This document shows, piece after piece, positions 8,704 to 52,413 of a stretch of DNA of 64,000 nt; positions within the stretch are counted from its first letter, which is position 1, and each line of letters begins with the position of its first letter. The translations under genes and the position numbers were made by a program. The notes under the pieces are model-generated. The model was not told the DNA's origin and searched no databases. It saw nothing but the letters and a program-made list of their open reading frames with translations. This DNA is from a virus: positions 79,152 to 143,151 of IMG/VR virus record IMGVR_UViG_3300028388_003908; one strand, written 5' to 3'.

Positions 8704-9276
8704 ATGAGCAACGTATTTGGCGGGAAAAATGAGCGGGCGGTATATATACCCATGTCCGAGACCGAGCTTGAGGTTATAGCGCGTCTGGTTGATTCAGACG
8801 ACCTCAAGGTCGTGTTGCACGGTTGGGGAGTGATCGAATCTCCAAAGATCACATACGGAGACAAGAACTTGCACATCCCTATCAAGATGACCTTCAACAA
8901 GCCTGTAGAGGCTCCTCAAGACGTTTACTATTTCGACATGGAGCTAAAGACAGGATCAGGCATCTCTCTCTTTAAGAAGCGCATGAGCACCTCGTATGGA
9001 GGACAACCTTTAAAGGTGATGGCAGGTCTAGAGCTAGAGATGGTTTGGGATATCTCTATACGTCACCTAGACCCAAACCTAGTGCGCGCAGTAAAGCCCG
9101 GTGCTAGAGGTCTGACCTCTAAGCTACAAGACAAGCTGACGCTCGATTTTACCGATACCGGAAACATGAGGTTAGACCGGAATCAAGCAGATCAAGCTCG
9201 ACAAATCCGTGCGATGGAGAAACTGATCAACAAGATGGATCAGGGCAAGCTCGCAAAGAACAATCAGAAGACGTAA
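8704..9276 (+). CDS. Hypothetical protein
   Basis: 190-aa ORF with RBS. Confidence 0.65.
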   Translation: MSNVFGGKNERAVYIPMSETELEVIARLVDSDDLKVVLHGWGVIESPKITYGDKNLHIPIKMTFNKPVEAPQDVYYFDMELKTGSGISLFKKRMSTSYGGQPLKVMAGLELEMVWDISIRHLDPNLVRAVKPGARGLTSKLQDKLTLDFTDTGNMRLDRNQADQARQIRAMEKLINKMDQGKLAKNNQKT

Positions 9277-9755
9277 ACGCGGTAACCGGGGATGCCCGAC
9301 ATACGCGAGATCTCTCTTGAGATGGTCAAGCCTTTCTTGATCTTCGCAACATCTACGATAAGCTCATCATGCTCTTGACGAGTCTCATCGAGATTACTTG
9401 AAGTCACCTCAAGCTGATAAGTATCGCCCCTGCGCTCAGCCTGCTTTAGATCGCGCTCTAATCTAGAGATTATAGAGGCGTAATCTTTCTGCCTCTGCTC
9501 AAGATTCTTGATAATCTCCTTGTTCAGATTGGTCCGAGACCTCGTGATCAGATCACCCTCATCTTTGATCCAAATGGTCTCTCCAGTGTGGTATGTCCCG
9601 AGCAAACGGAAAGCGATAGCCTCTACAATCGAGGCAGGGTCACGATACTTTGCGGTATCGAAAATGGTAGGCTTACCTGCGCTACGCTCAAGGCGCGCTA
9701 CGCGCATCTCTAGGTCTTTTAGATTGAACATCATCAAATCCTTCACTTGTGTCAT
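9264..9755 (-). CDS. Leader-family protein (KDLEMRVARLERSAG) with coiled-coil payload
   Basis: 24-26 bp identical to the leaders at about 36460 and 51780. Confidence 0.7.
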   Translation of the reverse strand: MTQVKDLMMFNLKDLEMRVARLERSAGKPTIFDTAKYRDPASIVEAIAFRLLGTYHTGETIWIKDEGDLITRSRTNLNKEIIKNLEQRQKDYASIISRLERDLKQAERRGDTYQLEVTSSNLDETRQEHDELIVDVAKIKKGLTISREISRMSGIPGYRVYVF

Positions 9756-9785
9756 GTACTATAATCGAACCCTATTAAAGCAGAA

Positions 9786-10265
9786 TCAATGAGATTCTGC
9801 CTCGCCATAAGCAGGCATAAAATATGGATTCTCAATCTTCTCTAAAGCGCTCAGATCCATCGGACACATATAATGCTCTACTAACGAGCCTAGATTCATA
9901 GTGAGACATAAATGATCTTGATCTGTGTCGAGATCATTCTCCCCTACAACACATAGTATGACGTAACCTACTCCGCTGAGATTAAGGCGGGCGTCCTCTG
10001 CCACTGCTCTCCAATCATCTAGGGGAATGTCATCAAGCAAGAGGAAATCCTCTTGAAAAGAGAACCCATGCCCCGACATATCCGTGATAAACAGATGAGG
10101 CGGCATACCGTGTATGTTAAGATTATTCTCTTGAGCCTTGAGGATGTAATCCTTCAAAGAATCAGCGATCCAGACCTTATATAAATCAGGGAGTTTCTCC
10201 ATGGATGACCTCGACATGAGAAGACGCTTGAGCGCGTTGAAGACGTTGACCGATTGTCTTAGCAA
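9786..10265 (-). CDS. Hypothetical protein (true start probably MEKLPD near 10202)
   Basis: ORF; the N-terminal extension overlaps a + strand gene. Confidence 0.55.
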   Translation of the reverse strand: MLRQSVNVFNALKRLLMSRSSMEKLPDLYKVWIADSLKDYILKAQENNLNIHGMPPHLFITDMSGHGFSFQEDFLLLDDIPLDDWRAVAEDARLNLSGVGYVILCVVGENDLDTDQDHLCLTMNLGSLVEHYMCPMDLSALEKIENPYFMPAYGEAESH

Positions 10266-10404
10266 TACGCAGAGACAGATCGCTAAGTATTATAGTAGCC
10301 GAGACCCAATGATGAACCATCTCAACAAGCTAAAGACAGAATCTATCAAGGAGATTCAGCAACTTGAGCGCGTGTCTCGACAGAAGAAAAAAGGAGAAAA
10401 GTAA
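10201..10404 (+). CDS. Small hypothetical protein
   Basis: GGGAG RBS; stop overlaps the next start (TAATG). Confidence 0.5.
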   Translation: MDDLDMRRRLSALKTLTDCLSNTQRQIAKYYSSRDPMMNHLNKLKTESIKEIQQLERVSRQKKKGEK

Positions 10405-10577
10405 TGCCGATCTACACCTTTAAATGTAAGAAGTGCGGTGAGGAAACCAAGAAGCTACAGAAGTACGAGGACGCGCCACCCGCTTGTCCTAAATGCGAGG
10501 GTGAGACAGAGCGCGCACCGTCAAAAAGCTCTTTCGTGCTCAAAGGTCCCGGATGGTTTAACACAGGCGGTTATTGA
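10404..10577 (+). CDS. FmdB-family zinc-ribbon protein (57 aa), not in the ORF track
   Basis: MPIYTFKCKKCG...CPKCEG...FVLKGPGWF matches the FmdB pattern; AAGGAG RBS. Confidence 0.85.
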   Translation: MPIYTFKCKKCGEETKKLQKYEDAPPACPKCEGETERAPSKSSFVLKGPGWFNTGGY

Positions 10578-10906
10578 TGACAGGCTATCTTCTGCCATCG
10601 TTAGCGCTCTGCTTTGCTAACGTCATCTTCTGGTATAAGGGCAACGCAAAAGAGATCTACGGTCTCGATTGGAGCCCCTTCAAATGGTGGCTCTTTACGA
10701 GCTTGTTCACCAATTACATCACGCTCTACTCATGGTGGAGATTGATCGAGATCGGAGATGTTTGGAGAGCAGGGGTGACGTGGGGTCTGTGCAGTCTCAC
10801 CACTGATCTCATCTTAAACACCGTTTATTTCGGCTTTAATGTTCGAGGTATACTAGCTCTCTTACTCTGCGCTTTATCTGCGTTTATCGCGCACGGAAAG
10901 AGCTAA
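10574..10906 (+). CDS. Small multi-pass membrane protein (SMR/EamA-like)
   Basis: About four hydrophobic segments in 110 aa. Confidence 0.5.
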   Translation: MMTGYLLPSLALCFANVIFWYKGNAKEIYGLDWSPFKWWLFTSLFTNYITLYSWWRLIEIGDVWRAGVTWGLCSLTTDLILNTVYFGFNVRGILALLLCALSAFIAHGKS

Positions 10907-11484
10907 CGAGACAAATCCTCAGCGCTGTCTGCGCCCTCTAAGAATTCTTTTAGAGAGACAGGCACATAATGAAAACCTACGTCTTTAGAAGCGCCTGTTC
11001 TTACGCGCTCTCCTTGCTCATCTATCTTGATGTTGAACGTAGCCTTAGCTGGATAAGACGTGTCACGTCTTGAGAAGGTTGAAATCTCCTCAATCTGATC
11101 TGCCCATGCCAACAGATAGTGAGAGCCCTCAAAAAGCTCTCCTTGGAAATCCGTTCTCAGCCCGTAAGCGTAGACCTTGATCCCTTCTGTTGAGAGCGCG
11201 CAGAGATCAAAAACCTGCTGTTTGCTCAAGAACTGAGCCTCGTCCACAAAGATAATCTTAGCGCTACCTGCCGACAAGAGATAGAGATTAGATTCTTCCG
11301 TAAAGGTCTGCGCTTGCGCCTTAAAACCTGTCCTTGAGGAAATGAACCCTTCCCCATCTCTGCCCGAGACTATCTCCGGAATAAGCATGGTGTAAGGTAT
11401 ATTAGAGGTCTCACAGGAGTGCGCTCTCATAAGCAGATTCGCGCTTTTGCCTGCGTTTACGGTTGAGTAAATGAAGGTGATCAT
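10903..11484 (-). CDS. tdk: Thymidine kinase
   Basis: STVNAGKS, FVDEAQFL, YGLRTDF and LFEGS motifs. Confidence 0.93.
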   Translation of the reverse strand: MITFIYSTVNAGKSANLLMRAHSCETSNIPYTMLIPEIVSGRDGEGFISSRTGFKAQAQTFTEESNLYLLSAGSAKIIFVDEAQFLSKQQVFDLCALSTEGIKVYAYGLRTDFQGELFEGSHYLLAWADQIEEISTFSRRDTSYPAKATFNIKIDEQGERVRTGASKDVGFHYVPVSLKEFLEGADSAEDLSR

Positions 11485-12164: not shown

Positions 12165-12172
12165 GGGACAAG

Positions 12173-14705: not shown

Positions 14706-14737
14706 TCTGTACCCATTCTGAACAAATTGTGAAAGTC

Positions 14738-16617: not shown

Positions 16618-17811
16618 CTAAAAACCGAAAAATCCAGTGTCAGACCAAACAGGAGGACGAGCATCGCCTTTAGACCATATAAAGATCGGCTCGCCTAGCT
16701 CAGTACCTTCCTTAATGAAAGGATCGTTAGGTCGCTTCTTGAGTTTATAACCTATCACGCCTTCATAAATAGCGCCCAAGCTCTCCATATATTCGATCAT
16801 AGGCTGACAGACTATCTTATATTCATCTTTGCCCGCTTTAACATCCGAGATGTTGATCGCTATGCGTCCACCTTCCTCTAAATGACACCAAGCGTTCTTG
16901 AGCGCTCTGAAAAGGAAATCTTTTAGCCAACTCTCGTCCGTTGCATAGCGCTTCCAACTCTGTGTGCTCTCGTCTGAATAACGCTCTCGATCAAAATAAG
17001 GCGGTGACGTGAAAACAAAATCAAAGCGCCTATCCCCTAGATCTACATCCTCAGCGCACCCGCAGATAAACTCTGTCTGCTTAGGTCTGTTGCAGTAGTC
17101 TCTAATCCCCTCGTAAAAGGGGTGTAGAGCGCTGTTAGGGTCGATACCTACATAAGACGTTGCCTCTGACGCTAAGAACCCTACAAGACGATCTCCCCAC
17201 CCCATAGAGAGATCAAGCACCGAGCGAGCTTGAAAAGCCCGATAGACGGCCTTGACCACGGAAGGTTTGAATTGACTCGCCATGTACGAGTGCAATCTTA
17301 ATCCGTCATATAAAACCCGATTATTAACCTGACCTCTAATGATACCTTCTAACGTAAAGAGAGGTCTCAAGATCGGTCTCTTTTCGCCCTTGCGATTCCA
17401 CTGAGCATACGGAGACATTCCGCCCGAGAAGGCACATTTCATCCTCTGCTCTTGCGTGAAATGATCAGACACCTTCAACCCATAGTTAGAGCCTCTGATA
17501 AGACGATACTCTCCTAGATAGGTGAAATCTTTAATGCTCGGGACGCGCTTCGCTTCCCATCTCTCCTCTTTAAAGTTCTCCTCCTCGGTTAAGAGACGTT
17601 GCCAATCCCTGCGTAGCTGTACCTCGCTATAGTCTCGATATGGGAACTCTAGATTGTCGATCAGATTTGAGACGTGTCGATGAAGCGCGTCTCTACCGAA
17701 TCGCTCCAGCATCTCTAACCACACAGATTCTGGAAAATCCAGCTTTCCGTTTTTGACAAGCTCGTACTCCTCTAAGGATTTCTTGCCGTCTTGTTTTGTC
17801 TCAAAAATCAA
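16618..17811 (-). CDS. SPPY-type amino-methyltransferase, paralog 3 (TTG start at 17811)
   Basis: VLDLSMGWGDRL and FTSPPYF motifs; GGGAG RBS before the TTG. Confidence 0.85.
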   Translation of the reverse strand: MIFETKQDGKKSLEEYELVKNGKLDFPESVWLEMLERFGRDALHRHVSNLIDNLEFPYRDYSEVQLRRDWQRLLTEEENFKEERWEAKRVPSIKDFTYLGEYRLIRGSNYGLKVSDHFTQEQRMKCAFSGGMSPYAQWNRKGEKRPILRPLFTLEGIIRGQVNNRVLYDGLRLHSYMASQFKPSVVKAVYRAFQARSVLDLSMGWGDRLVGFLASEATSYVGIDPNSALHPFYEGIRDYCNRPKQTEFICGCAEDVDLGDRRFDFVFTSPPYFDRERYSDESTQSWKRYATDESWLKDFLFRALKNAWCHLEEGGRIAINISDVKAGKDEYKIVCQPMIEYMESLGAIYEGVIGYKLKKRPNDPFIKEGTELGEPIFIWSKGDARPPVWSDTGFFGF

Positions 17812-19012
17812 AGAAGGTCTCCCTATCCCAAAGGGGCTCGGGCGCGTTGCCTTTTGCCCATATAAAGACAGGCTCCGCCTGAGTACCATCCTTGAGAAGA
17901 TTCTTTAATCTACTACCTGCTCTAGGTCTGACCTTTAACGGATAACCTATTACGCCTTCGTAGTTCGCCCCTAATCCTTTCATAAACGCTAAGAGATCTT
18001 CGCATACAAATACCTTTTTATAAGGTGCGTCACAGATATTAACCGCTATACGACCTCCCTCTTGTAAGCCCCTGTAAATCTTGCCCAAAACATCAAACAA
18101 GAAATCTTCCTTCCAAGAAGATAGCGTGGGAAACAGATTGACCGATTGTAAAGGATCATCCGCATATATCTCTAGGTCAAAGTAGGGCGGTGATGTAAAA
18201 ACAAAATCGTAGGAGAGCGAGCTAAAATCCACATTACTAGCTGAATCGCATATATGCTTTACGGTCTTGCCTGTATTACAAAAATCAGAAATATCTCTGT
18301 AAGGCTCAAGTAGACGATGATTAGGGTCAATACCCGTATAAGAGCGCGCATTAGATGCGTGAAAGCCTACAAGACGGTCTCCCCAACCCGAGCTAAAATC
18401 CAATACGTCCTTTGCGCGGAAAAACTCATAAACTGAACGAGCCAAAGAAGGACTAAACTGACTGGCGATTATGCCGTGCATTCTCATAGATGATCGCAGG
18501 GTGTTTGCACTTAAATTCTTCTCATACATCAAGCCTATAAAAAAATTGAGAGTCTCTGGTTCAAATCGACCTTTCAATAGACCTTCCCATCTATCAACCA
18601 CCGAGATCCCTCTTGTCCTTGCTTTAAGTCTCTCACCCATGGTATATTGATCGCTAACGATTTTACCTAAAGCATCTCCTACAAGTAGCACACCTTCATC
18701 TTGATATGTTAGGGGCATAGTCACAGGTAAGGACCGGTGCGACCAAGCACCCTTGTAAGCAAAACTGCTGTACGATTTTAGCAGGTTGAACTCCTTATGA
18801 GTCCTTATTGCAGAGTGATTTTTATAAGGGAAAGGTATCTGATGCTCTTTTACGATACCTCCTATGTGTCGGATAATATCTTTTCTGTCAAAGCGCTCGA
18901 TAACCTCTGACCATTCGGTCTCATTCATAAAAAATTCTTTACCGTCTGGACTCAGCCAATTGTAGTCCGATAACGCTGTTCGCTCGGTCTTATCTTCTAG
19001 ATCAAAAAACAT
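17801..19012 (-). CDS. SPPY-type amino-methyltransferase, paralog 2 (ATG at 19012)
   Basis: VLDFSSGWGDRL and FTSPPYF motifs; AAGGAG RBS. Confidence 0.85.
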   Translation of the reverse strand: MFFDLEDKTERTALSDYNWLSPDGKEFFMNETEWSEVIERFDRKDIIRHIGGIVKEHQIPFPYKNHSAIRTHKEFNLLKSYSSFAYKGAWSHRSLPVTMPLTYQDEGVLLVGDALGKIVSDQYTMGERLKARTRGISVVDRWEGLLKGRFEPETLNFFIGLMYEKNLSANTLRSSMRMHGIIASQFSPSLARSVYEFFRAKDVLDFSSGWGDRLVGFHASNARSYTGIDPNHRLLEPYRDISDFCNTGKTVKHICDSASNVDFSSLSYDFVFTSPPYFDLEIYADDPLQSVNLFPTLSSWKEDFLFDVLGKIYRGLQEGGRIAVNICDAPYKKVFVCEDLLAFMKGLGANYEGVIGYPLKVRPRAGSRLKNLLKDGTQAEPVFIWAKGNAPEPLWDRETFFDF

Positions 19013-31928: not shown

Positions 31929-32224
31929 TTATGGTTGAGAGAAGACGCTTACCCGACCCATAGAGATTGTCACATCAATAGCAAAGTTCTTCTCAAGTTC
32001 CCCCCATGAATATGGAACCTTATCATAATCAAAATGAGCTATACCTACTACGCTGACACAGATCTAGGATTCACGCGCTCTCCGAGATTATTAATCTCTC
32101 CTGCGACCTGCTGGCTTAAACCTCTAAGATCCACCATACGACCTGCGGTGCGACCCATGCCTTGCTCAAGACGTGCTACGCGCTGTTGTAACTCACGGAT
32201 CATTTCACTTGCTGTTCTTCTCAT
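31929..32224 (-). pseudogene. Leader-family gene (MRRTASEMIRELQQRVARLE...RTAG) interrupted by a frameshift at about 32052-32060
   Basis: First frame ends TAG TAG at 32050-32045; the -1 frame continues SVVGIAHFDYDKVPYSWGELEKNFAIDVTISMGRVSVFSQP* to 31929. Confidence 0.65.
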
Positions 32225-32287
32225 GGGGAGATCCTTTCTCATGTTGGCATGATTGCTCTCTCAGAGCGCTCATAAATGAAAAAACGC

Positions 32288-32545
32288 TTAAAAGATTTCC
32301 TGCCCAACATTCTCCGATTTCAAGATAATCTCAGGACCATCTGAACTCATCTGAAAAGGCCCATCTACGATAAACCTCTGACCATTACCGTCCTCAAAAA
32401 CAACCCGGACGTATGTCCTCGGTAGCCATTCTGTGTCCATGTCGTATTCGTCATCCTTTAGATTTAGAATCTCGTCTACGACCTTTACCATGTCTTCTTC
32501 CATAAGAGCCTCACATAAAAAAGAGTAAGGATTATGAGTAGACAT
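32288..32545 (-). CDS. Hypothetical protein
   Basis: 85-aa acidic ORF. Confidence 0.5.
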   Translation of the reverse strand: MSTHNPYSFLCEALMEEDMVKVVDEILNLKDDEYDMDTEWLPRTYVRVVFEDGNGQRFIVDGPFQMSSDGPEIILKSENVGQEIF

Positions 32546-32559: not shown

Positions 32560-32934
32560 ATGCAAGAGGATTTAAAGGATTTGCACATGAGTGAATGGGT
32601 CGTCTACGTCATACAGAGTCAACAACCACGCAAAACAGCTTCCGGAAAGCCTGCGGAAGGATTCTTCTATGTCGGCTGTACCACCGATGTAGAGCGCAGA
32701 CTAAGACAGCATAATGGCGAGATCAAAGGAGGCGCGAAATACACATCTAAGTATCGCCCTTGGAAGCTCATGTGTACTTATGGTACATACGCTAATCGTT
32801 CAGAAGCGATGAAGGCGGAGCGCGCTCTCAAAAAAAAGAGAGGGCGCCACCGCCTTCATTGGACACCAGAAGAATCAAAATGGTGTCGAGGCAGAGAACC
32901 TAGAGATTTACTTAAAAGTGGTACACAGTCTTAG
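32560..32934 (+). CDS. GIY-YIG nuclease (Slx1/UPF0213-like)
   Basis: VYVI...YVGCTTDVERRLRQHNG...GAKYT...RPW...AMKAE. Confidence 0.9.
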   Translation: MQEDLKDLHMSEWVVYVIQSQQPRKTASGKPAEGFFYVGCTTDVERRLRQHNGEIKGGAKYTSKYRPWKLMCTYGTYANRSEAMKAERALKKKRGRHRLHWTPEESKWCRGREPRDLLKSGTQS

Positions 32935-33202
32935 TACCCAAAGATTCAGCCACCATCTTGATAAAAGCTCTCGCATCTCCACGATACTCTTTACCATTCC
33001 TGTTCAGAGCAACCTCAGCACCGCGACCAAAGGTAGCAAATGCGTTACCTTTTAGGACAGCTTTCAGTTCATTAAAATTATTGATCTTAATCATATCCCC
33101 GTCTTCAGCTATAAGGATGAAAGATTCCCCTGCGGTCTTACCCTCAAGTTGTGCGATACGGGTTTCAAGATCACGAATTACTTCACTAGCTGTTCTTCTC
33201 AT
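32912..33202 (-). CDS. Leader-family protein (MRRTASEVIRDLETRIAQLEGKTAG)
   Basis: Leader and upstream region conserved with the copies at 32224 and 51835. Confidence 0.8.
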   Translation of the reverse strand: MRRTASEVIRDLETRIAQLEGKTAGESFILIAEDGDMIKINNFNELKAVLKGNAFATFGRGAEVALNRNGKEYRGDARAFIKMVAESLGTKTVYHF

Positions 33203-33266
33203 GTGGAAGATCCTTTCTCGGTTAGCATGATTGCTCTCTCAGAGCATTTATAAATGAAAAAAAAAA

Positions 33267-33494
33267 TCAAAGAGACCGATAGTACTCAGAGAGCAGTTGC
33301 TTGGCCATGTTCAAACCTACATCGAACTTGCGCGAAATCGCCTTCAAGATCAGATCATCTGACATACCTATATCCTTCAAAGATCTGATCTCTCTGTTCA
33401 CCTTAAAAGGTGGTAAAAAGAAACCTCGATCCCTTTCCAAATAAGCGTTCGCCACTCTTCGGGCGCTCTCTTTAAGCATAGCTAATCTTCTCAT
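33267..33494 (-). CDS. Small protein with MRRLA...ARRVANAYL motif
   Basis: ORF carrying the recurring RVAxxY motif. Confidence 0.65.
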   Translation of the reverse strand: MRRLAMLKESARRVANAYLERDRGFFLPPFKVNREIRSLKDIGMSDDLILKAISRKFDVGLNMAKQLLSEYYRSL

Positions 33495-36090: not shown

Positions 36091-36774
36091 TTAGACGACA
36101 AGACTAAAGGTAACGTGGTTGCTACCTTCCTCAAAGATCCAAACGTCCGCCCTCATTCTTACTAGAGAAGGATGTGGGATAAGGATCTCTACATATCCTG
36201 CATCTCTGTAGAGCTTAACTCCTTTGACCGCTTTCAAGAGCGTTCTGTAAACAAGTCTTGGACGCATATTGACCCTAACGGAACCTCGCACAATGTCGGC
36301 AGAGATGCCTGCATCTTCCAAGATCTGCAAAAGAGCAAGATTCTCTTTACTAACTGTAGAAGGTGCTCGTCTATCAGTAATGAAATCCTGATCTAACCCA
36401 TCGGGGTCCTCAAGACCAATTCATCTTGAAGTCTCCCAAGGGTCGATAGCCTCCTTCTCAAGGCGCGCTACGCGCATCTCAAGCTCACGGATAACCTCAC
36501 CGGCTGTTCTTCCCATATTTGCTGTTCTTAGTAGATTCTTGGGGGTGTTGCGCTTCAAGAAATTCTGAACGGTTTGGGCAGCCTTTGATCCGAGATCATT
36601 AGTCACAATGCGACCACCCTCCCAATGAGCGATATTTGACCCGCCCATCCATACGCCATCTAGACGCATACCGTTAGTGAGTAGCTTCTTAGACTCTGCG
36701 GGTTTTTGATCAATAAATGCGTTGATCACCATCTTATCCTTCTCGGATAGACGTAGCTCTGCGATTCGTCTCAT
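36091..36774 (-). pseudogene. Two-module leader-family gene with a single in-frame TGA at 36421-36423
   Basis: ORFs 36421..36822 and 36091..36330 are in frame; the gap reads IGLEDPDGLDQDFITDRRAPSTVSKENLAL with no further stop. Confidence 0.65.
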
Positions 36775-44268: not shown

Positions 44269-45147
44269 TTAGCGAGTGACGCTGAGACGAGCAAGACCGC
44301 GAGGGTTGTACGCGCCAATACCGAGGTTCTCAAACACAGAGAAGCCGATAGTACGAGCCTTAGGGTCGTCCGCAGAGAGGACGGTAAGCTCGGTACGAAC
44401 GGGGATACGACCAAACATCTCAGGCTCACAGCAGACATACACGGTGCCCGCAGGAACAAGACGGCTGGTGATAACCTGTGCGCCCCAAAGAGTAGCCTGA
44501 AGACCAGTCTTGAGAAGGGCTGCTTGGCTCTCAATGTCGAGAATGTCACGACCAAACTTACGGATGTCAGCGTAGTCACGAGCGTTCATGAACACGCGAG
44601 CAACGCGAAGGTCATGGCTCTCAACGAGGCTGTATGCGTCAGCAAGCACAGAGCCGTTAAGAGGCGCGATCACCTGAATGTCAGAGTTGGTCTGACCAGG
44701 TACGCTATCAAAGCCCTGCGTTGCCACAGCGTTAAGGATAGCGAACACGCGCTCGTCCTCGGCAGCCTGAATCTGGCTACGAGCGAGATCCTGAGCGCGC
44801 TCGATGAGATCGAAGCGTCTCTCCTTGATCTGTGTCAAGGGGATCTCAGGGTTTGATGCGATCTCAAAGAGAGGGAAGATCACACGGCGGGGCTTGGTGA
44901 TGCTGAGGATGTTCTGTCCCTCTTCACCAACCACAAACGCGGTTACGTCAGGGTCCTTGTCGTAGATAGGAAGCGCGCCATCGGGCAACTGCTCTACGAG
45001 GAAGGTCTTACGACCCACAGAGGTATAGTCTCTGCGGAGGCGTAGGGGTTGTGTCATTGAGGCAGCCAACTTCGCACGACCCGCAGGGGTCTTGATGTAG
45101 TCGGCAATAATCTTGCTCTTTACGCTATTATCAACATTGTTGCTCAT
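44269..45147 (-). CDS. Major capsid protein (HK97 fold)
   Basis: About 290 aa; follows protease, scaffold and decoration genes; biased codon use; followed by a terminator. Confidence 0.85.
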   Translation of the reverse strand: MSNNVDNSVKSKIIADYIKTPAGRAKLAASMTQPLRLRRDYTSVGRKTFLVEQLPDGALPIYDKDPDVTAFVVGEEGQNILSITKPRRVIFPLFEIASNPEIPLTQIKERRFDLIERAQDLARSQIQAAEDERVFAILNAVATQGFDSVPGQTNSDIQVIAPLNGSVLADAYSLVESHDLRVARVFMNARDYADIRKFGRDILDIESQAALLKTGLQATLWGAQVITSRLVPAGTVYVCCEPEMFGRIPVRTELTVLSADDPKARTIGFSVFENLGIGAYNPRGLARLSVTR

Positions 45148-45937: not shown

Positions 45938-47293
45938 TTAGCCGAAGTATCTGCTAACGTCAGGTGCGGTCTCCCACAGCTTGCTGAGATCGTCTGCACC
46001 GCTTGAAGCCTCACGGCTGATGTTGCCGAGGGTCTTCACAGCAGGCTGACGACTAGCGAGACGAGGACGTGCGTGAGCCTTCTTAGAAGCGGTAGGCTCC
46101 TCCTCGCTCATCTGAATCTCCTCAGACTCTTCCTCCTCAGTCTCTTCCTCCTCAGTCTCTTCCTCCTCAGTCTCTTCCTCAGAAGCCTCAAAGATACGAG
46201 CGAGCTTAGGATCAACAGACGCCTCCTCGGTTGCGTCTAGACCCATGGTGTCCTCTGAAGTCTCCTCCTCTGAAGCCTCCTCCTCTGAAGCCTCCTCCTC
46301 TGAAGCGCTATGATAGAAGTTAGCCTTCTTGCTATCCATGTCAGCTAGGATAGAAGCGAGTACGCCCTCCTCTGCGCTCTCCTCGTCTGCTTCCTCCTCC
46401 TCTGAAAGGATCTCAGCGAGTACGCTGGCGAGACGGTTTATACCACGGCTCTCGCTACGGGGACGCCAAGAAGCCTGCTTAGGCTGCTCAACGCTCTCCT
46501 CCATCAACTCCTCTTCATCGTCAGAGTATCCGGTAGCCTTTGCCACAGCGTCATCAGCGAGCTTGCGAACCTGTGAAGCAAGACGAGCGTTAGCGAGCTT
46601 TAAGGTATCAACCTGCTCTTGAAGCATCTCAGCTAGACGGTCGGTGTGTCTGCGAGACGCCATGTGATGAGTTCCCATGTAGCCAGACTCATGCTCATCT
46701 GCCATGTGATAATCAGACTCATGCTCGTCTGCCATGTGATAATCAGACTCATGCTCGTCTGCCATGAGATCAAGATCATCAATGATCTCGTCATCATCAG
46801 CGTACATATCAGCGTTCACGTTACCAGGGCCGCGATCTGTGACGTGATAGCCGGTAGCTACCTCCATCTCGTCATGCGCCATGTCCTCCTCAGAAAGACG
46901 TGCCAGCTTGTTTTCGATTTGACGATTAGGGAGATCCATGAAGCGAAGCGCGAGATCCTCAATATCGTTCTGTGAAGCTCTGCGACCAAGCTGAGCCTCT
47001 GCGATACGGATGCACTTGGCAGCCTTGCGCTCCATAGCCTGACGAAGACCAAAGTCCTCTGCAAGCTCATCGGTCACGGCAGGGTGATCAGGCTCCCAAC
47101 CGTAAGAAGCAGGAGGAGGACCTGAACGGTAAGGACCCTCATGTACTGCCTCACCGAAATCTGAATCAATTGCGTAATCGTCAATCTCAGGAAGAGGCTT
47201 AGTAGCAGGATGCCCGAAAGCATCGAAACCGAGATTATCATAACCAGGAAGGGCGCTGTTCGCCCTGCGACCTCTACGGGGGAAACGTGACAT
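45938..47293 (-). CDS. Prohead scaffolding protein
   Basis: Very acidic, coiled coil, between protease and capsid genes; many [K/R/H]-x-A sites. Confidence 0.65.
   Translation of the reverse strand: MSRFPRRGRRANSALPGYDNLGFDAFGHPATKPLPEIDDYAIDSDFGEAVHEGPYRSGPPPASYGWEPDHPAVTDELAEDFGLRQAMERKAAKCIRIAEAQLGRRASQNDIEDLALRFMDLPNRQIENKLARLSEEDMAHDEMEVATGYHVTDRGPGNVNADMYADDDEIIDDLDLMADEHESDYHMADEHESDYHMADEHESGYMGTHHMASRRHTDRLAEMLQEQVDTLKLANARLASQVRKLADDAVAKATGYSDDEEELMEESVEQPKQASWRPRSESRGINRLASVLAEILSEEEEADEESAEEGVLASILADMDSKKANFYHSASEEEASEEEASEEETSEDTMGLDATEEASVDPKLARIFEASEEETEEEETEEEETEEEESEEIQMSEEEPTASKKAHARPRLASRQPAVKTLGNISREASSGADDLSKLWETAPDVSRYFG
46677..46766. repeat. 30-bp coding tandem repeat x3 (MADEHESDYH)
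   Basis: cagactcatgctc(a/g)tctgccatg repeated; shorter EEETE and SEEEA repeats at 46125-46305. Confidence 0.85.
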
Positions 47294-47325
47294 AGCTTGT
47301 CAACCTTTCGTAGCGTGTGGGGCTT

Positions 47326-48732
47326 TCAAGCCCTTGTGGAGATTAACTTGGATAATCTTACCAAGCGTGATTTGTCTTGATCAGAGAGTTCCGCTCCATT
47401 ATACATGGTCGCCCTCTGTAAAAATGCCTCGACAGAAGCATATCTATCAGCCCTGCCCAAGAGCTTGGCGATACGATAGATTTTCTCAGACATCCGGACG
47501 TTGTAATGGTCATTAACAAGACGGATGTTGTCGACCACCTCGGAATCGCTCTTGGCGATACGGATGGCTGATTCAAGATTGCGGGCATAGACCTTACGGA
47601 GCGCTTGACCCTCTTTAATAATGGTGTCGTTCTCGCTCACGGTAGATTCGCTTATGGCGGGCTTGAGTGCCTCGTCCATAAGACCGCTCTTGATCTCTTG
47701 CTCAATCTTCTTACGGATACGATTGATGACCGCGTCTGTAACCGCTGTCTCTACCTCGTCAATAATTGACTTGGGACCAGCAGGTTCGGCGGGCTTCTCA
47801 TCTCCATCGTCATCATCAAATCCGAAAGCTAGACGATGAGACGCGCTCTTTTGAATCCATTTCTCGGGTACATCAGATGATTCTTCTGATGAAGGGATCT
47901 CAAGTATGTTACGAGCTACAGCACCCTTAAAGGCTGGCGTCTCTACCCAAGAAGCCTCGATAAAGGTAACCCCACCTGTCTCTCCTGCGGTGTGATGACC
48001 ACAAAGCTCTGCGACACGGTGCTTATTGCCTTGCTCGTCATAGAAGGTATTACCCTTCTCATACTTGATGTGCTGACACATCTCGGTCTCATCGGCTGCG
48101 ACATGACCACATTTCGTGCAGATAGTAAAATCGACACTACAGCCCATGCTCATGGCGTTGGTCTTACCGCTCAGAATATCCTCGACAAGACCCTCATGCT
48201 TACGATCTGTCGCCACAAGGATATCCACATAAAGCGATTCCCCTACGTCACGGAGAACAGCGTCAATAATGCGCCCCTTTGAAAGCTCCTCAACCTGAAC
48301 GTGCTCTACAAAGTTATGCGCCCCGACAAAGGTCTTGTAGGACTTTTGAATGACTTCTCTTGACCAGCTATCGAGATTATTGTTGATGTACTGATCGGTC
48401 TTAGGACTAATACGATAATCCGCATACTTGCGATGTATCTGCTGACCGTCTTGTGTAAGCGAGCCTGTCTTAGTCCCGGGAGGAGTCACAGCGTCTACAG
48501 AGCAGACAATCGTGGCGTGAGTAAGCAGGAAACGGTCGGGCGTGAAGGCCTCCCCTAGTATATCCTCTGCTTGCTTACGCAAGGATTTATTGACCGTAGC
48601 CTTAGAAGCTACGCGCACTTTATCCCAATGATTACCTCTCACGTCAGGCGTGACAACCCCTGCGCGAGCGTATCTTAGAAATGCCATTAGAAACCTCCTA
48701 TAATGTCTTCTTGCTTGATTAGGAAAAGACAC
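47326..48732 (-). CDS. Prohead maturation protease with Zn-finger insertion (start probably MAFLRY near 48687)
   Basis: NNNLDSW, HNFVEH, KGRIID and SMGC (His/Ser candidates); CTKCG...CQH; lies upstream of the scaffold. Confidence 0.75.
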   Translation of the reverse strand: MSFPNQARRHYRRFLMAFLRYARAGVVTPDVRGNHWDKVRVASKATVNKSLRKQAEDILGEAFTPDRFLLTHATIVCSVDAVTPPGTKTGSLTQDGQQIHRKYADYRISPKTDQYINNNLDSWSREVIQKSYKTFVGAHNFVEHVQVEELSKGRIIDAVLRDVGESLYVDILVATDRKHEGLVEDILSGKTNAMSMGCSVDFTICTKCGHVAADETEMCQHIKYEKGNTFYDEQGNKHRVAELCGHHTAGETGGVTFIEASWVETPAFKGAVARNILEIPSSEESSDVPEKWIQKSASHRLAFGFDDDDGDEKPAEPAGPKSIIDEVETAVTDAVINRIRKKIEQEIKSGLMDEALKPAISESTVSENDTIIKEGQALRKVYARNLESAIRIAKSDSEVVDNIRLVNDHYNVRMSEKIYRIAKLLGRADRYASVEAFLQRATMYNGAELSDQDKSRLVRLSKLISTRA

Positions 48733-50825
48733 GAAGGACAGCCCAAAAGACGCTCGCTCACGCCATCTCTTCTCTTATAGCAGGTTCTCTTAAGAGGCAC
48801 TTCGCATTTAGGACAATGAGGGTGAATCTCATCTTTGCGCTGTCGATACTGGCGATTCTTAGCGCCCCAATAAAGAGCAGTCTTAGACTGACCATATCGA
48901 GACGCAACGCGGGAAGCACCCGTAGATACAGGCACGACCCCTAGTCCACCAGGCACCGAATCCTCAATGCTCTTAGGATCTACAGGATCAGATGATTCAT
49001 CAATCTCAAGATCCTCTACGGGCATCCTTGTAGAGCCGTGAGGAAACTGAACGTCAACCATACCGATACCAGGGAAAACCGCAAGAACGACACCTGACTG
49101 AGTTTCAGAGCCACCCATAAACGGATACACCTTATCACCAGGCTCAAACTGACGAGCCCTGCCCTGATAATCCGAATATACGGTCGCTCTTTTGTGTCTC
49201 ATGTTCGGTCCTCCGTATATATTGCGTCTCTCAATAAAAGATATATAAGAGCGGGCAATCCTTGCAGAAAGAGAGCCAGTTTTATCAAAGAAGGATTCCG
49301 TCTCGCCTTCTCCCTCTTCTCCCCCCTCAGAAGATTCTGAATCCTCATCGTCTATATCAAACGCGCTCTCTAAATCCGCTAAAGATGACTCTTCATTAGA
49401 CGCTATATCCAAGAACCTGCTCTGATAAGCCTCTTGCGTCTTATTATGCGTCTTGTACTGAGAGACGTTTTTAACTCTTTGCTCGCGCTCATAACGAGAA
49501 AGCACATCCTCATCTCCGCTGATCAGAGCTTGCAGATAATCCTCCTCTGTAAGCTCCTTCTTCTCTCCTTTGCCTTTGCCCTTACCCTTATCTCCCTTGT
49601 CATCCTCTTTATCCCGAGAAGATTCTCCTTCCCCGCTGACAAAGGACATACCATCGAGGGCCATGTTATTGATAAATTCCTTCAAGCGCTCTCGGGCAGC
49701 CTCAGAAATAGGCGCAGGACATTTCTGACCTACCGCTAAGACCTTACCTCCCATGTCTCCGTTGTCAGGAGAGGCGGGACAATAATTAGGATTTAGCTTC
49801 TCGATGAGACTGCCATAAGGGCCGTCTGCGCCTCCAACAGCGTTCACCCAATCCTCATCGCTTAGTTCGTTGAGATAATCTTTTCTTAACGATCTACGCG
49901 CTAGTCCGTTCCTTACTCTTACTGATCTGGCAGCCATGTCCATGGCTTGCTTTTTTCCCTCATCTGAAAGATCTGCGCTCTTGACAGACCTAACAATATA
50001 AGGATCGACACGACCGGATTTGTCTTCCCCATTAACCGCCATCACCGCGAGCAAGGAATCTCGGGCATCCTCTAGAGCCATCTTCTTAGACCCGCTCGAC
50101 TGACCGATAGCTTGCTCAAAGTTGACTAACGATTCTGCTCTCTGATCCTTGCCAAGAGCGCTGAAGCGCTTGATATGCTTCTCTCGCTCTGCTCTGCGCG
50201 CTATGTTCAGAGCATTACCCTTCATGTTGTCAAAATGACTAGAATCCACATCAAAGCTAGGATTGGTCATCACCTTATCTTTGATGCGTTCATGTACGGG
50301 ATTATCAACATCCTCTTTCGACATTTCGTCATAAAGATCGCTCTCGTCACCGTCCATGACTTGGCTGTAAGCGTCCTCTAGCTCTTTCTCTAAAGAATCA
50401 TCCTTTCTCTTAGAAGGCTTAGGGGACTTAGGGGACTTAGGGGACTTAGGGGAGCCTCCACCGGGTGCTGAAGACGTACCCCTACCTGAGCCTCCTTCTG
50501 ACCCACCTCCGGAGCCACCTCCTTTACCTTCCTCTCTGCTACGCTCAAGCTCCTTTAGATACTCCTCTCGGAAATCCTTTACAGCTTTAGGGTGTTTTTG
50601 ATTATAAGCGGTCGTGAATTTGATCTTATTGCCGGTCGATTTACTTGTGTAGGTTTTGTCCTTGAGCTTCTTGTTGACTCTCTTAACAACCTCTATATCG
50701 ACTTTAGGACCTTTCTTGGATTCTGTCTCCTCAGGTTCCTCTTCACCTTCTCCCTCAGGAACAGGCTCTTCTGCGCTTAGGTATCTTGACGCAATCCTAC
50801 TCGCTAGTCCTCTGTTTTTAAACAT
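48687..50825 (-). CDS. Modular head-region protein with internal in-frame start at 49202 and C-terminal Zn ribbon
   Basis: RIASRY, RIARSY and RVASRY motifs; SPK repeats; CPKC...CPSC. Confidence 0.65.
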   Translation of the reverse strand: MFKNRGLASRIASRYLSAEEPVPEGEGEEEPEETESKKGPKVDIEVVKRVNKKLKDKTYTSKSTGNKIKFTTAYNQKHPKAVKDFREEYLKELERSREEGKGGGSGGGSEGGSGRGTSSAPGGGSPKSPKSPKSPKPSKRKDDSLEKELEDAYSQVMDGDESDLYDEMSKEDVDNPVHERIKDKVMTNPSFDVDSSHFDNMKGNALNIARRAEREKHIKRFSALGKDQRAESLVNFEQAIGQSSGSKKMALEDARDSLLAVMAVNGEDKSGRVDPYIVRSVKSADLSDEGKKQAMDMAARSVRVRNGLARRSLRKDYLNELSDEDWVNAVGGADGPYGSLIEKLNPNYCPASPDNGDMGGKVLAVGQKCPAPISEAARERLKEFINNMALDGMSFVSGEGESSRDKEDDKGDKGKGKGKGEKKELTEEDYLQALISGDEDVLSRYEREQRVKNVSQYKTHNKTQEAYQSRFLDIASNEESSLADLESAFDIDDEDSESSEGGEEGEGETESFFDKTGSLSARIARSYISFIERRNIYGGPNMRHKRATVYSDYQGRARQFEPGDKVYPFMGGSETQSGVVLAVFPGIGMVDVQFPHGSTRMPVEDLEIDESSDPVDPKSIEDSVPGGLGVVPVSTGASRVASRYGQSKTALYWGAKNRQYRQRKDEIHPHCPKCEVPLKRTCYKRRDGVSERLLGCPSCLFLIKQEDIIGGF

Positions 50826-51448
50826 TAGTCTCTCCTCTTGAAATCAGGATCGCCTTTGTGACCTCTACCCAAGCCTTCTAGATCCTTGTCCTCTACCCTC
50901 ATGCGATTACGCATTAAATCTTTACGAGGAGGCCTCTTCTTAGGCTTGACCTTAGACAGCTCTCTTATGTCGTCATCCTCTTTGTCAGTGACGCTCAGTG
51001 TAGCCATTCTCTTGAGAGCTACCCTGCGCGCCATGATATGCTGACAATCATGGAAATGCGCCATACGCTCGATTGAAGCCATTTTACGCACATCGAAACA
51101 CAGAGGCGCAAAACCCTTCCTGAGCGCCCTTAAAGCCTGCGCTATCGCAAGGTGCCCTTCATGCTCCTTCTTGGTCTCTAAACAATCAAGCCACTCGCCT
51201 TGTAGATCTCTCACCTCTTGAGCTTTACCGTCTAAAGGCTCCTCGTACTTGAAATCCTTATCCAAGGACACGGCCTCTTCAAACAGCGCTTCGATGGTGA
51301 GAAAATGCTTTCGGATACAATCACGACAGCGCTTGCGCGGATTGTTTAGATGATCCTCTAGCAAGCTCATCTGCTTACAGATCTCTCTCAAATTAAAGAG
51401 AGGATTCATAATAGGCAGTAAGCCCATTTTTTGCTCTTGTGCGCTCAT
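50825..51448 (-). CDS. Hypothetical protein with LEDHL...CxxC...KH metal-binding-like motif
   Basis: NLREICKQMSLLEDHLNNPRKRCRDCIRKH. Confidence 0.65.
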   Translation of the reverse strand: MSAQEQKMGLLPIMNPLFNLREICKQMSLLEDHLNNPRKRCRDCIRKHFLTIEALFEEAVSLDKDFKYEEPLDGKAQEVRDLQGEWLDCLETKKEHEGHLAIAQALRALRKGFAPLCFDVRKMASIERMAHFHDCQHIMARRVALKRMATLSVTDKEDDDIRELSKVKPKKRPPRKDLMRNRMRVEDKDLEGLGRGHKGDPDFKRRD

Positions 51449-51514
51449 AATAAAAAGCCCCCATCTGCATGATTTACAGATGGAGGCTTAATAAAGAGAT
51501 TAAGAGGCTAAGTA

Positions 51515-51835
51515 TTAACCCTTAATGTTGTCCCTAGACTCTTGAATCACACTAAGGAACGTGCTCTCAAGGCTGTTGAGCGCGTCTAGGGTGTGACCTA
51601 CAAGTCTACCACCGCTAAAGTGCTCATAAACAACCTGGTCCCCGTCCTCGATCTTACCGCTCTTAACCGCGTCTTGCTCTGCCTTAGCTTGAGCCTTAGC
51701 GATAGAGACGAGCTTAGAGGTGAGATCATCAAACACCTTTTGGATGTCTGCGTCATACTTACCGGCGGCTGAGCGCTCAAGGCGCGCTACGCGCATCTCA
51801 AGCTCACGGATTACTTCACTAGCTGTTCTTCTCAT
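51515..51835 (-). CDS. Leader-family protein (MRRTASEVIRELEMRVARLERSAAG)
   Basis: GAAAGGA RBS before the ATG at 51835; 36 bp identical to 36457-36492. Confidence 0.8.
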   Translation of the reverse strand: MRRTASEVIRELEMRVARLERSAAGKYDADIQKVFDDLTSKLVSIAKAQAKAEQDAVKSGKIEDGDQVVYEHFSGGRLVGHTLDALNSLESTFLSVIQESRDNIKG

Positions 51836-51873
51836 AATAGAGATCCTTTCATTTCCAGCGTGTTTGCTTCTCA

Positions 51874-52413
51874 TCAATCCTCAGGATAAAAGAAGTATGA
51901 GTGCTTCTTATATTTCTTACGCTGTAGACGATTCTTTTTTCTGTTTGGATTCGGCTTGTTGCGAGATTTAGTCATAGACCTCACCCTTGTGGATTTGTTT
52001 CCTTTCCAAGATTTCTTCTGCCCCTTAGAAATCGCTCTAGCGTGAGCAGGGGAGAGGCGCTTGATAGCCATGCGATCCTCAGACAAGCGCTCCTCTAAAA
52101 TCTCCTCATCAAGAGCCTCGATCTCTGCGTCTAGCTCCAAAGAAGCGATACGGATTTCAAGCTCAGCGAGGTAATCACCTGCGCTCTTACTCTGAGTTAA
52201 ACCCTTAACGTGCACCCTATCGGCCTTAACCGAAAAGCGCAGACTAGGGAAATCTCGCCTCAGAAAAACATAAGCCTGAGAAGCCTCGTCATAATCCTCA
52301 AAGCCTAGATAACCACGACCGGTCTCTAAGACTTCAATACCTCTGCGCTCTAGCGCCTGTATTAAATCTTCCATAATAATCTCCTTGACGTACATAGCGT
52401 AAATGTACGTCAC
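51874..52413 (-). CDS. Protein with internal leader-like motif (KSAGDYLAELEIRIASLE) and very basic tail
   Basis: Internal motif; K/R-rich C-terminus after RMA; AAGGAG RBS suggests a start near 52374. Confidence 0.65.
   Translation of the reverse strand: MTYIYAMYVKEIIMEDLIQALERRGIEVLETGRGYLGFEDYDEASQAYVFLRRDFPSLRFSVKADRVHVKGLTQSKSAGDYLAELEIRIASLELDAEIEALDEEILEERLSEDRMAIKRLSPAHARAISKGQKKSWKGNKSTRVRSMTKSRNKPNPNRKKNRLQRKKYKKHSYFFYPED

What the first reader, a model, noticed from the sequence alone, without database searches (positions are those of the whole stretch)
9264..52413. Portable leader cassette (MRRTASEVIRELEMRVARLE...[K/R]xA) on unrelated payloads: candidate capsid-targeting cargo system
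Seen: six minus-strand loci carry the same amphipathic motif followed by unrelated sequence. They are 9264..9755 (KDLEMRVARLERSA), 32224 (MRRTASEMIRELQQRVARLEQGMGRTA), 33202 (MRRTASEVIRDLETRIAQLEGKTA), about 36515 internal (MGRTAGEVIRELEMRVARLEKEA), 51835 (MRRTASEVIRELEMRVARLERSA) and about 52190 internal (KSAGDYLAELEIRIASLE). Conservation extends to the DNA: 36457-36492 is identical to 51776-51811 (36 bp), 9687-9710 shares 24 bp of this, and 33177-33202 is identical to 51810-51835. In five of the six copies a [K/R]-x-A site follows the motif just before the payload. Established: T4 internal proteins carry a short N-terminal capsid-targeting sequence that prohead protease gp21 removes. Inference: this is an analogous address label, possibly undescribed, that loads diverse proteins into the head for injection and is swapped between genes by recombination in the conserved DNA.
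Basis: partly seen in the sequence, partly recalled or inferred. Interest (0 to 1): 0.88.

Follow-up and report, generated by a model that had tools for sequence, protein, structure and literature searches.

The report
Address-and-cut leader of huge phages
A clade of uncultured 275-376 kb phages puts the same 23-residue helical leader, ending in a likely head-protease cut site, on dozens of unrelated small proteins per genome; it most likely loads them into the capsid as phage T4 does with a different tag, but no experiment shows this yet.

Summary
There are 9-10 copies in this 143 kb contig, 26 and 32 in two complete relatives, and at least 1,142 distinct protein clusters in public metagenomes. 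No copy was found in deposited phages or bacterial genomes.

Selection acts on the peptide: synonymous sites vary freely. Payloads are almost all unrelated ORFans.

The leader has two parts. Residues 1-14 occur once per protein. Residues 15-23, R[VI]ARLE[KR][QS][AS], recur alone at domain junctions of fusion proteins whose halves exist elsewhere as separate leader-bearing genes.

An internal standard fixes the cut. In a phage Ntn hydrolase (PF03417-like) the catalytic Cys follows [KR]-x-[ASG] in 80 homologues and the T4-type [LIV]-x-E in 25.

The phage's prohead protease best matches the T4 gp21/herpes assemblin fold (moderate support) and has two conserved [KR]-x-A-S sites of its own. Leader genes share a promoter-like motif with structural genes, and replication genes lack it.

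Best reading (about 0.6): a T4-CTS-like capsid-targeting propeptide with new sequence, specificity and scale. Packaging and cleavage remain inferred.

This scan has flagged analogous leader systems in other huge phages.

The parts
51515..51835 (-). Leader protein, 106 aa. Full 23-aa leader at 51767-51835 (ends RSA), helical payload. Lies between portal and head operon.
   Evidence: 56 bits; leader helix pLDDT 92-95.
51874..52413 (-). 179-aa ORF directly after the portal. Degenerate internal leader at 52126-52188 (KSA-GDYLAELEIRIASLE), acidic stretch, very basic C-terminal tail. Start codon uncertain.
   Evidence: 44.8 bits; TAGTCTCTTTAT motif abuts the called GTG.
36421..36774 (-). 117-aa ORF with the leader at its C-terminal end (36448-36516: MGRTAGEVIRELEMRVARLEKEA). 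RTA sites on both sides of the helix.
   Evidence: (54 bits).
32912..33202 (-). Leader protein, 96 aa. Leader at 33131-33202 (ends GKTA).
33203..33268 (-). Shared upstream cassette: T-run, TTTCATTTAT promoter-like core, GCTCT-loop-AGAGC hairpin, GAAAGGATCT Shine-Dalgarno.
32048..32224 (-). Leader protein, 58 aa. Leader at 32144-32224 (ends QGMGRTA).
32225..32288 (-). Second copy of the shared upstream cassette.
9264..9755 (-). 163-aa ORF carrying only the core half of the leader near its N-terminus (9678-9734: ..LKDLEMRVARLERSA).
   Evidence: 48.9 bits.
47326..48687 (-). Prohead protease, 453 aa from Met16 of the called ORF. Catalytic domain of about 265 aa plus a helical C-terminal domain. 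Conserved R-V-A-S at 48604-48615 and K-S-A-S at 47839-47850, the latter at the domain boundary.
   Evidence: phrog_18299; T4 gp21 5JBL Z 7.0; VZV protease 1VZV Z 7.0.
44269..45147 (-). Major capsid protein, 292 aa.
   Evidence: PDB 6WKK gp27 major capsid protein, E 6e-62. 93-94% identical in G001-G003.
45938..47293 (-). Acidic scaffold-like protein p451 with conserved ends.
   Evidence: Function inferred from position and composition only.
48687..51448 (-). p207 and p712, the first two genes of the conserved head operon (fused in G003). p712 carries three R[IV]A[SR][RS]Y motifs. p207 has one conserved K-M-A-S site.
52429..54117 (-). Portal protein.
   Evidence: phrog_16240. 83-84% identical in relatives.
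54327..56147 (-). Large terminase.

Best explanation
The loci belong to a very large family of small, soluble, mostly ORFan proteins of a clade of uncultured huge phages whose capsid protein resembles that of PDB 6WKK (from memory, phage G). Each protein carries a bipartite 23-residue leader.

The N-half (about residues 1-14, MRR[ST]ASE[VI]I..LE.) and the C-half together form one amphipathic helix. Its 4-3-4-3 hydrophobic stripe (A5, I9, L12, V16, L19) is inferred to dock the protein onto a component of the assembling prohead core.

The C-half, R[VI]ARLE[KR][QS][AS], ends in the cut site [KR]-x-[AS]|[SAGC]. The enzyme is inferred to be the phage's own prohead protease, whose fold best matches T4 gp21/herpes assemblin.

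The inferred sequence of events is as follows. Leader genes are transcribed with the structural genes. The proteins co-assemble into the prohead. The protease removes the leader, separates fused payloads at internal copies of the C-half, and unmasks zymogens such as an Ntn hydrolase. The mature payloads stay in the head and probably enter the host with the DNA.

Shown here: the leader family, selection on the peptide, payload diversity, bipartite architecture, fusion/fission equivalence, a shared promoter class, a likely protease fold, and a motif partition before an obligatory N-terminal nucleophile.

Inferred: actual cleavage, which enzyme does it, packaging, and ejection.
For: 1. Scale and position. 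There are 9-10 copies here, 13, 26 and 32 in relatives. At least 1,142 clusters at 50% identity have E<=1e-3, almost all with the leader at residues 1-28.

2. Peptide-level selection. A5, L12 and E20 are invariant in A3; R15 and L19 nearly so. Third-codon-position entropy at these sites is 0.8-1.6 bits.

3. Unrelated payloads. 97 payloads fall into 77 BLAST clusters. Only WGR, RyR, HAAS and DUF5419 hits occur among 244 proteins.

4. Linear-motif behaviour. 13 of 150 proteins carry an internal copy of residues 15-23 only, against 0.015 expected. The domain behind such a site in P0013 is 53% identical (E 1e-46) to the whole payload of P0090, where it sits directly behind a full leader. P0012/P0066 and P0010/P0007 behave likewise.

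5. Scissile bond. In 105 homologues of the genome's PF03417-type Ntn hydrolase, the catalytic Cys follows [KR]-x-[ASG] in 80 and [LIV]-x-E in 25, with no mixed cases. Six more begin M-C. The Cys is often internal, behind other tags or fusion partners.

6. Protease. The best fold matches are T4 gp21 and VZV assemblin, both at Z 7.0. R[VI]A-S near the N-terminus and K[SA]A-S at the catalytic/C-terminal boundary are conserved in four genomes. These are 2 of only 5 positionally conserved [KR]xAS sites in 23,342 aligned columns, and a third is in head protein p207. The leader-less outgroup LR745208.1 lacks both protease sites.

7. Timing. In G001 the motif TAGTTTnTTTAT occurs 76 times against 12.6 expected. 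It precedes at least 20 leader genes, the head operon, p210-MCP, portal, sheath and baseplate. It does not precede DNA polymerase, DnaB, helicase or methyltransferase.

8. Two copies lie between portal and head operon here, and one lies after the portal in G004.

9. The leader is modelled as a helix at pLDDT 92-95.
Against: - There are no proteomic, structural or genetic data. No cultured phage carries the leader.
- The position next to the portal is not conserved.
- A related head module works without the leader in LR745208.1, so the system is an add-on, not part of core assembly.
- A PSSM and an HMM built from leaders do not pick out scaffold or other head proteins, so no docking partner is identified.
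- Ntn hydrolases of this family can self-process, so the motif before the Cys could reflect something other than the head protease. I could not verify that the [LIV]-x-E group sits in phages with T4-type proteases.
- The protease model is of moderate quality (pLDDT 62) and Z 7 is moderate. Foldseek found nothing significant.
- The promoter motif marks a class that includes many genes of unknown function. Its late timing is inferred from gene content only.
Confidence: 0.6

Rival explanations
1. Processing tag without packaging. The leader is a propeptide and polyprotein junction recognised by a phage protease acting in the cytoplasm (the head protease before assembly, or another enzyme). It keeps payloads inactive or fused until late infection. 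The helix is a protease exosite, not an address.
For: Internal junction copies and fusion/fission pairs and the masked Ntn nucleophile need only cleavage, not packaging. No docking partner was found.
Against: The N-half is as strongly conserved as the cut site but is dispensable at internal sites. This suggests a once-per-protein function separate from cleavage. Known proteases of this fold act inside proheads (PMC5694885, PMC9958956). Leader genes share the structural-gene promoter class.
Confidence: 0.15
2. Address tag for another phage-built assembly, such as the tail lumen or baseplate, a membrane structure or an intracellular compartment, with cleavage on arrival.
For: The promoter class is shared with tail and baseplate genes as well as head genes. 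Leader genes are scattered over the genome.
Against: The only recognisable maturation protease is the prohead protease, encoded in the head operon, and it carries the same kind of site at its own domain boundary. No other compartment-forming genes were noticed, though they were not searched for systematically.
Confidence: 0.1
3. Structural coiled-coil module. The leader is a short oligomerisation helix that multimerises small proteins or joins them to a common hub, with no cleavage.
For: Perfect 4-3-4-3 hydrophobic repeat with flanking charges. Modelled as a continuous helix with the payload in one member.
Against: Internal copies keep only nine residues, too short for a coiled coil. Conservation continues past the helix into [KR][QS][AS] and then stops abruptly. 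The same [KR]-x-[AS] precedes an obligatory N-terminal nucleophile.
Confidence: 0.07
4. DNA-level mobile cassette. Promoter, ribosome-binding site and first codons spread by recombination, as with T4 PeSL elements, and the encoded peptide is incidental.
For: Five copies here share about 70 nt upstream and identical 23-36 nt coding stretches. Within-genome codon sharing is elevated in G000 (0.65 against 0.48). A homing endonuclease gene lies beside two cassettes.
Against: Residues are conserved through free synonymous change across genomes. The upstream element and the leader occur separately. Internal and C-terminal copies have no promoter.
Confidence: 0.03

Closest known systems
Capsid targeting sequence (CTS) of phage T4 internal proteins IPI, IPII, IPIII and Alt, removed by prohead protease gp21 (Mullaney and Black 1996, as described in PMC5694885 and PMC9958956)
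   Same: A short N-terminal peptide shared by otherwise unrelated proteins. It ends at a protease site. The protease has the same fold class. Small core genes lie next to the portal gene. Additional processing of scaffold-type proteins and of the protease itself is expected.
   Different: No sequence similarity. 23 residues against 10-20. The inferred cut is after [KR]-x-[AS], not after Glu. The architecture is bipartite, with the cut-site half reused at internal junctions. The scale is 13-32 genes per genome and over 1,000 payload families, against a handful in T4. Function here is untested.
Propeptides of phiKZ, 201phi2-1 and SPN3US head and ejection proteins, cut by gp175/gp245 at S/A/G-x-E or A-x-E (PMC5694885, PMC10052503)
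   Same: Huge phages with many processed inner-head proteins, several cut sites per protein, and C-terminal autocleavage of the protease.
   Different: Those propeptides are long (often over 100 residues) and are shared only among paralogues. The cut is after Glu. Here one short leader is shared across unrelated families.
Herpesvirus assemblin maturational and release sites, (V/L/I)-x-A|S (from my own knowledge)
   Same: Protease of the same fold (VZV and HCMV proteases among the best structural matches). Small P1 (Ala) and small P1' (Ser). A site at the boundary between the protease domain and the C-terminal scaffold-like domain.
   Different: P3 is basic here. Herpesviruses process only the scaffold and protease, not a cargo repertoire.
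Encapsulin cargo-loading peptides
   Same: A short portable peptide directs diverse cargo into an HK97-fold shell.
   Different: Those peptides are usually C-terminal, are not cleaved, and have a different motif. Here the shell is a tailed-phage capsid with portal, terminase and maturation protease.
T4-type PeSL mobile regulatory cassettes (promoter plus stem-loop flanking variable ORFs; from my own knowledge)
   Same: A repeated promoter-like element with a small hairpin precedes variable small ORFs and could mediate shuffling.
   Different: Here the cassette is of the structural-gene promoter class. It is separable from a selected coding leader.

Membership tests
T4-type capsid-targeting propeptide system (functional class) | The same short terminal peptide on otherwise unrelated proteins | tested here: met
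T4-type capsid-targeting propeptide system (functional class) | The peptide ends at the cleavage motif of the phage's own prohead protease | tested here: inconclusive
   The [KR]-x-[AS] end of the leader matches the motif before the Ntn nucleophile (80 of 105) and two conserved sites in the protease. The enzyme's specificity is not measured.
T4-type capsid-targeting propeptide system (functional class) | Phage encodes a prohead protease of the gp21/assemblin fold in the head module | tested here: met
   phrog_18299. Position in the conserved head operon. T4 gp21 Z 7.0 (rmsd 3.2 Å, 129 aligned) and VZV protease Z 7.0 (rmsd 3.5 Å, 114 aligned) are the top two of 48,161 chains. Support is moderate because the model's pLDDT is 62.
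T4-type capsid-targeting propeptide system (functional class) | Tagged genes are expressed with the head genes | tested here: inconclusive
   Promoter-like motif shared with structural genes and absent from replication genes.
T4-type capsid-targeting propeptide system (functional class) | Tagged proteins are present in proheads or virions with the tag removed | not testable with these tools
   Needs particle proteomics.
T4-type capsid-targeting propeptide system (functional class) | The tag is sufficient to package a foreign protein | not testable with these tools
   Needs an experiment.
T4 CTS (sequence family: MKTYQEFIAE-like, cut after [LI]-x-E) | Sequence similarity and a Glu at P1 | tested here: not met
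   The leader consensus is unrelated. Conservation ends at [KR][QS][AS], and the clade's Ntn hydrolase has [KR]-x-[AS] where another group has [LIV]-x-E.
Encapsulin cargo-loading peptide | Shell is an encapsulin (no portal, terminase or tail), and the peptide is retained | tested here: not met
   Portal, terminase, sheath and baseplate are present.
Pfam or PHROG family for the leader or its bearers | Significant profile match | tested here: not met
   No family at E<=1e-3 for the window's members. No literature hit for the motif strings.

The most novel reading that the evidence does not exclude
A universal, portable 23-residue address-and-cut label lets a large clade of huge phages load dozens of arbitrary proteins into the capsid for delivery to the host. 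The cargo includes fused multi-payload polyproteins and zymogens that become active only after trimming. The enzyme would be a gp21/assemblin-fold protease with a previously undescribed [KR]-x-A| specificity. The label's two halves (address and cut site) would be separable, and could be reused to package foreign proteins.
Probability: 0.45. Interest if true: 0.8.

Novelty: new variant of a known kind. Interest (0 to 1): 0.62.

Why it matters
If correct, it gives a sequence rule that predicts the packaged, and probably injected, proteome of a widespread group of uncultured huge phages: 13-32 proteins per genome and over 1,000 families, nearly all of unknown function.

It predicts a new cleavage specificity for the capsid-protease fold shared by phages and herpesviruses. 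It also shows how a phage can add cargo by simple cassette fusion.

The bipartite design gives direct experiments: the N-half for address, the nine-residue C-half for cutting. It could also yield a packaging tag for engineered capsids.

It would further explain why so many huge-phage ORFans are small soluble proteins: they may be the ejected first-strike repertoire.

Tried and rejected
1. **Complex prediction.** The leader was tested against MCP, p451 (residues 80-300) and the protease catalytic domain. There was no verdict (score 0.00, controls not run), so this says nothing about binding.

2. **Scaffold as leader relative.** R[LIV]AS motifs are over-represented in p451 and p712 and partly conserved in position. 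A PSSM and an HMM built from leaders alone did not recover them, so the idea was dropped as evidence.

3. **Payload annotation.** Pfam and PHROGs gave almost nothing.

4. **Foldseek of the protease model against PDB.** No significant match, with gp21 and assemblins only among weak rows.

5. **Leader in deposited phages, the nearest relative LR745208.1, or 185,579 prokaryote genomes.** None found. This rejects host mimicry and a prophage origin.

7. **Protease type in a contig of the [LIV]-x-E group.** The record is not held, and the neighbouring genes were uninformative.

8. **Literature search for the motif strings.** Only unrelated synthetic peptides were found.

9. **Cut after ...LE (Glu at P1, as in T4 and phiKZ).** Considered first, then set aside. 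Conservation runs three residues further, and the Ntn standard places the cut after [KR]-x-[AS].

10. **Payload charge.** Not distinctive: median pI 6.1 against 6.4.


Full report
**What is there.** The window is the last 64 kb of a 143 kb IMG/VR viral contig judged 46% complete. The three DNA identities it quoted hold to the base.

Three copies start a protein: 51515-51835, 32912-33202 and 32048-32224. One ORF (9264-9755) has only the second half of the motif near its N-terminus. One (36421-36774) has a full copy at its C-terminal end. One (51874-52413) has a degenerate internal copy.

Three further copies lie outside the window. Five copies also share about 70 nt of upstream DNA: a T-run, a TTT[CT]ATTTAT core, a small GCTCT/AGAGC hairpin and a GAAAGGATCT ribosome-binding site. 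That element and the peptide are separable. It precedes one non-leader ORF, and several leader genes lack it.

**What kind of phage.** The window holds terminase, portal, a head operon (p207, p712, protease, p451), p210 and a 292-residue major capsid protein. It also holds DNA polymerase, DnaB, methyltransferases and a sheath-containing giant protein.

The capsid protein matches the solved 'Gp27 major capsid protein' of PDB 6WKK at E 6e-62. From memory that entry is phage G, whose head genes have the same order.

Four related contigs (G001 376 kb and G002 312 kb, both rated complete; G003; G004) have portals 83-84% identical and capsid proteins 93-94% identical.

**How widespread is the leader.** A 25-column profile found at least 109 loci in IMG/VR. 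A 30-column profile found 1,142 clusters at 50% identity in 1.84 billion representatives, nearly all with the match at residues 1-28.

A six-frame census gives 32 leader genes in G001, 26 in G002, 13 in G003 and 9-10 here. They lie on both strands, sometimes in tandem arrays.

No deposited phage, no reference prokaryote genome and no paper in the library holds it. The nearest deposited relative, LR745208.1 (terminase 66% identical), has the same head operon but no leader. There the portal gene is followed directly by p207.

**Peptide or DNA?** Across 85 distinct leader DNAs, A5, L12, L19 and E20 never change, and R15 changes only once. Third-codon-position entropy at these sites is 0.8-1.6 bits. 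R15 uses five codons in G001 alone.

Same-codon use among identical residues is 0.65 within this genome against 0.47-0.48 between genomes, so some recent copying or conversion occurred here. In the relatives the excess is small (0.53-0.56 against 0.48-0.53). The peptide is therefore the selected object.

**Payloads.** 97 payloads form 77 BLAST clusters, and none of this genome's payloads match each other. Of 244 leader proteins scanned, only a handful hit any Pfam family: WGR, RyR, HAAS and DUF5419. Payloads are small (median 120 residues), hydrophilic and not membrane proteins.

**Two halves.** In 13 of 150 proteins a second copy lies inside the protein, against 0.015 expected. In most of these cases it is cut down to residues 15-23, R[VIT]ARLE[KR]Q[AS], with no trace of the N-half.

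These sites are junctions between independent payloads. The domain after the site in P0013 is 53% identical (E 1e-46) to the entire payload of P0090, which follows a full N-terminal leader. P0012/P0066 and P0010/P0007 are similar pairs.

So the C-half is needed at every junction and the N-half once per polypeptide. This is what an address plus a cut site would predict. A nine-residue remnant is too short to be an oligomerisation helix.

**Where is the cut?** Conservation runs through E20, [KR]21, [QS]22 and [AS]23, and then stops. I first considered a T4-like cut after Glu.

A lead from another first-stage note on this genome gave a better test. The ORF at genome 71330-72274 begins MDKKA-C. 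Its homologues carry PF03417 (AAT, peptidase C45), an Ntn-hydrolase family whose Cys nucleophile must be the free N-terminus (the chemistry is established knowledge).

In the 105 homologues with at least three residues before that Cys, the preceding residues are [KR]-x-[ASG] in 80 and [LIV]-x-E in 25, with no mixed cases. Six more start M-C. The Cys is often at position 6, but it can be as deep as residue 229, behind other tags or fusion partners.

[LI]-x-E is the T4 gp21 motif (established knowledge; cleavage after Glu in T4, phiKZ and SPN3US is stated in PMC5694885). The partition therefore looks like two protease specificities reading the same substrate. It places the cut in this clade directly after [KR]-x-[AS], that is, after residue 23 of the leader.

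Two caveats apply. Such hydrolases can self-process. And I could not confirm the protease type in a contig of the Glu group.

**The enzyme.** The 453-residue protease belongs to a family of 1,359 proteins with no Pfam model. Its model is of moderate quality (pLDDT 62).

Of 48,161 chains, the two best structural matches are T4 gp21 (Z 7.0, rmsd 3.2 Å, 129 residues) and varicella-zoster protease (Z 7.0, rmsd 3.5 Å, 114 residues). HCMV protease scores Z 5.1. Foldseek was not significant.

Four genomes conserve R[VI]A-S near the N-terminus. They also conserve K[SA]A-S exactly where the conserved catalytic domain gives way to a variable acidic linker. In 68 ortholog families (23,342 columns) only five [KR]xAS sites are conserved in position. 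Two are these, one is in head protein p207, and the other two are in a baseplate protein and a helicase.

T4 gp21 removes its own N-terminal nine residues (PMC9958956). The phiKZ and SPN3US proteases remove their C-termini (PMC5694885). The leader-less outgroup lacks both sites (one genome only).

**Timing.** In G001 the motif TAGTTTnTTTAT occurs 76 times against 12.6 in shuffles, typically 30-60 nt before a start codon. It precedes at least 20 leader genes.

It also lies upstream, in uninterrupted same-strand runs, of the head operon, p210-MCP, portal, sheath, baseplate and terminase. DNA polymerase, DnaB, a helicase and a methyltransferase have none without crossing 7-14 opposite-strand genes. 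In this genome the variants TCTCTTTAT and TTT[CT]ATTTAT sit before p207, the 179-residue gene and the leader cassettes.

**Structure.** The leader is modelled as a helix from residue 5 at pLDDT 92-95. Its conserved residues A5, I9, L12, V16 and L19 form a 4-3-4-3 stripe.

**What remains open.** No docking partner is identified. Profile scans do not find leader-like segments in scaffold or shell proteins. The single complex job gave no verdict. Nothing shows that the proteins are in particles.

**Verdict.** The best-supported mechanism is a T4-CTS-like capsid-targeting propeptide with a new sequence, a bipartite design, an inferred [KR]-x-A| cut and a very large cargo repertoire (confidence about 0.6).

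This is a new variant of a known kind. Other agents of this scan have reported analogous leader systems in other huge phages, and related notes exist for this genome.

Noticed in passing
window 48687-50825 (p712); genome 71330-72274, just outside the window: A second short tag, R[VI]A[SR]xY[LM]. It occurs three times in p712 (ASRIASRYL, SARIARSYI, ASRVASRYG) and at the extreme C-terminus of the Ntn hydrolase (RVASKYLG). In many homologues it directly precedes [KR]-x-A|Cys (for example RVASTYLRSKTA|C). It may be a sister address tag of the same system.
   Followed up: partly
genome 71330-72274 minus strand (about 6.9 kb before the window): PF03417-like Ntn hydrolase whose nucleophile Cys6 is masked by MDKKA. 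In G003 the ORF is read as fused behind another domain. It is a candidate zymogen switched on by the maturation protease.
   Followed up: yes
window 32225-32288 and 33203-33268; genome 11998 minus strand: The promoter-like and 5'UTR cassette contains a two-tier hairpin (UAUGA..GCUCU-loop-AGAGC..UCAUG) whose loop varies between copies. Fold z-scores are modest (-0.3 to -2.5). One copy precedes a non-leader 49-aa ORF.
   Followed up: partly
window 47326-48687: The protease catalytic domain carries an invariant C-x2-C ... C-x-H cluster (C190, C193, C204, H206 in the 453-aa numbering). This looks like a zinc-ribbon-like insert, which I do not recall in T4 gp21 or assemblins (from memory, not checked).
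   Followed up: no
window 51874-52413: The protein next to the portal ends in a roughly 45-residue tail very rich in K, R and N. This is reminiscent of DNA-binding internal proteins. Its called GTG start is probably wrong.
   Followed up: partly
window 33638-35017: A homing-endonuclease-like gene (phrog_12131, E 5e-45) lies beside two leader cassettes. This is a possible route for cassette mobility.
   Followed up: no
window 16618-20204: Three consecutive, partly overlapping ORFs of about 400-426 aa all hit the same methyltransferase-like PHROGs (phrog_12517, phrog_498). They look like a tandem paralogue array.
   Followed up: no
window 25266-30053: In this 1,595-aa protein only the last 300 or so residues match tail sheath (phrog_2839). 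The N-terminal 1,270 residues are unexplained.
   Followed up: no
leader codons 2-3 in all genomes: The two arginines after the start codon are almost always AGA (24 of 27 in G001), while R15 and R18 use many codons. This suggests an mRNA-level constraint at the translation start in addition to the peptide constraint.
   Followed up: partly
payloads in general: Cysteine content of payloads is about 0.4%, against about 1.5% in other called ORFs of the four genomes. The background includes uncurated ORF calls, so the contrast is uncertain.
   Followed up: no
genome 66575-67570 minus strand (outside the window): Another first-stage note reports an acidic protein that copies residues 32-43 of the capsid protein's N-arm. 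I did not check it. If true, it may be a shell-docking mimic relevant to how cargo is held.
   Followed up: no
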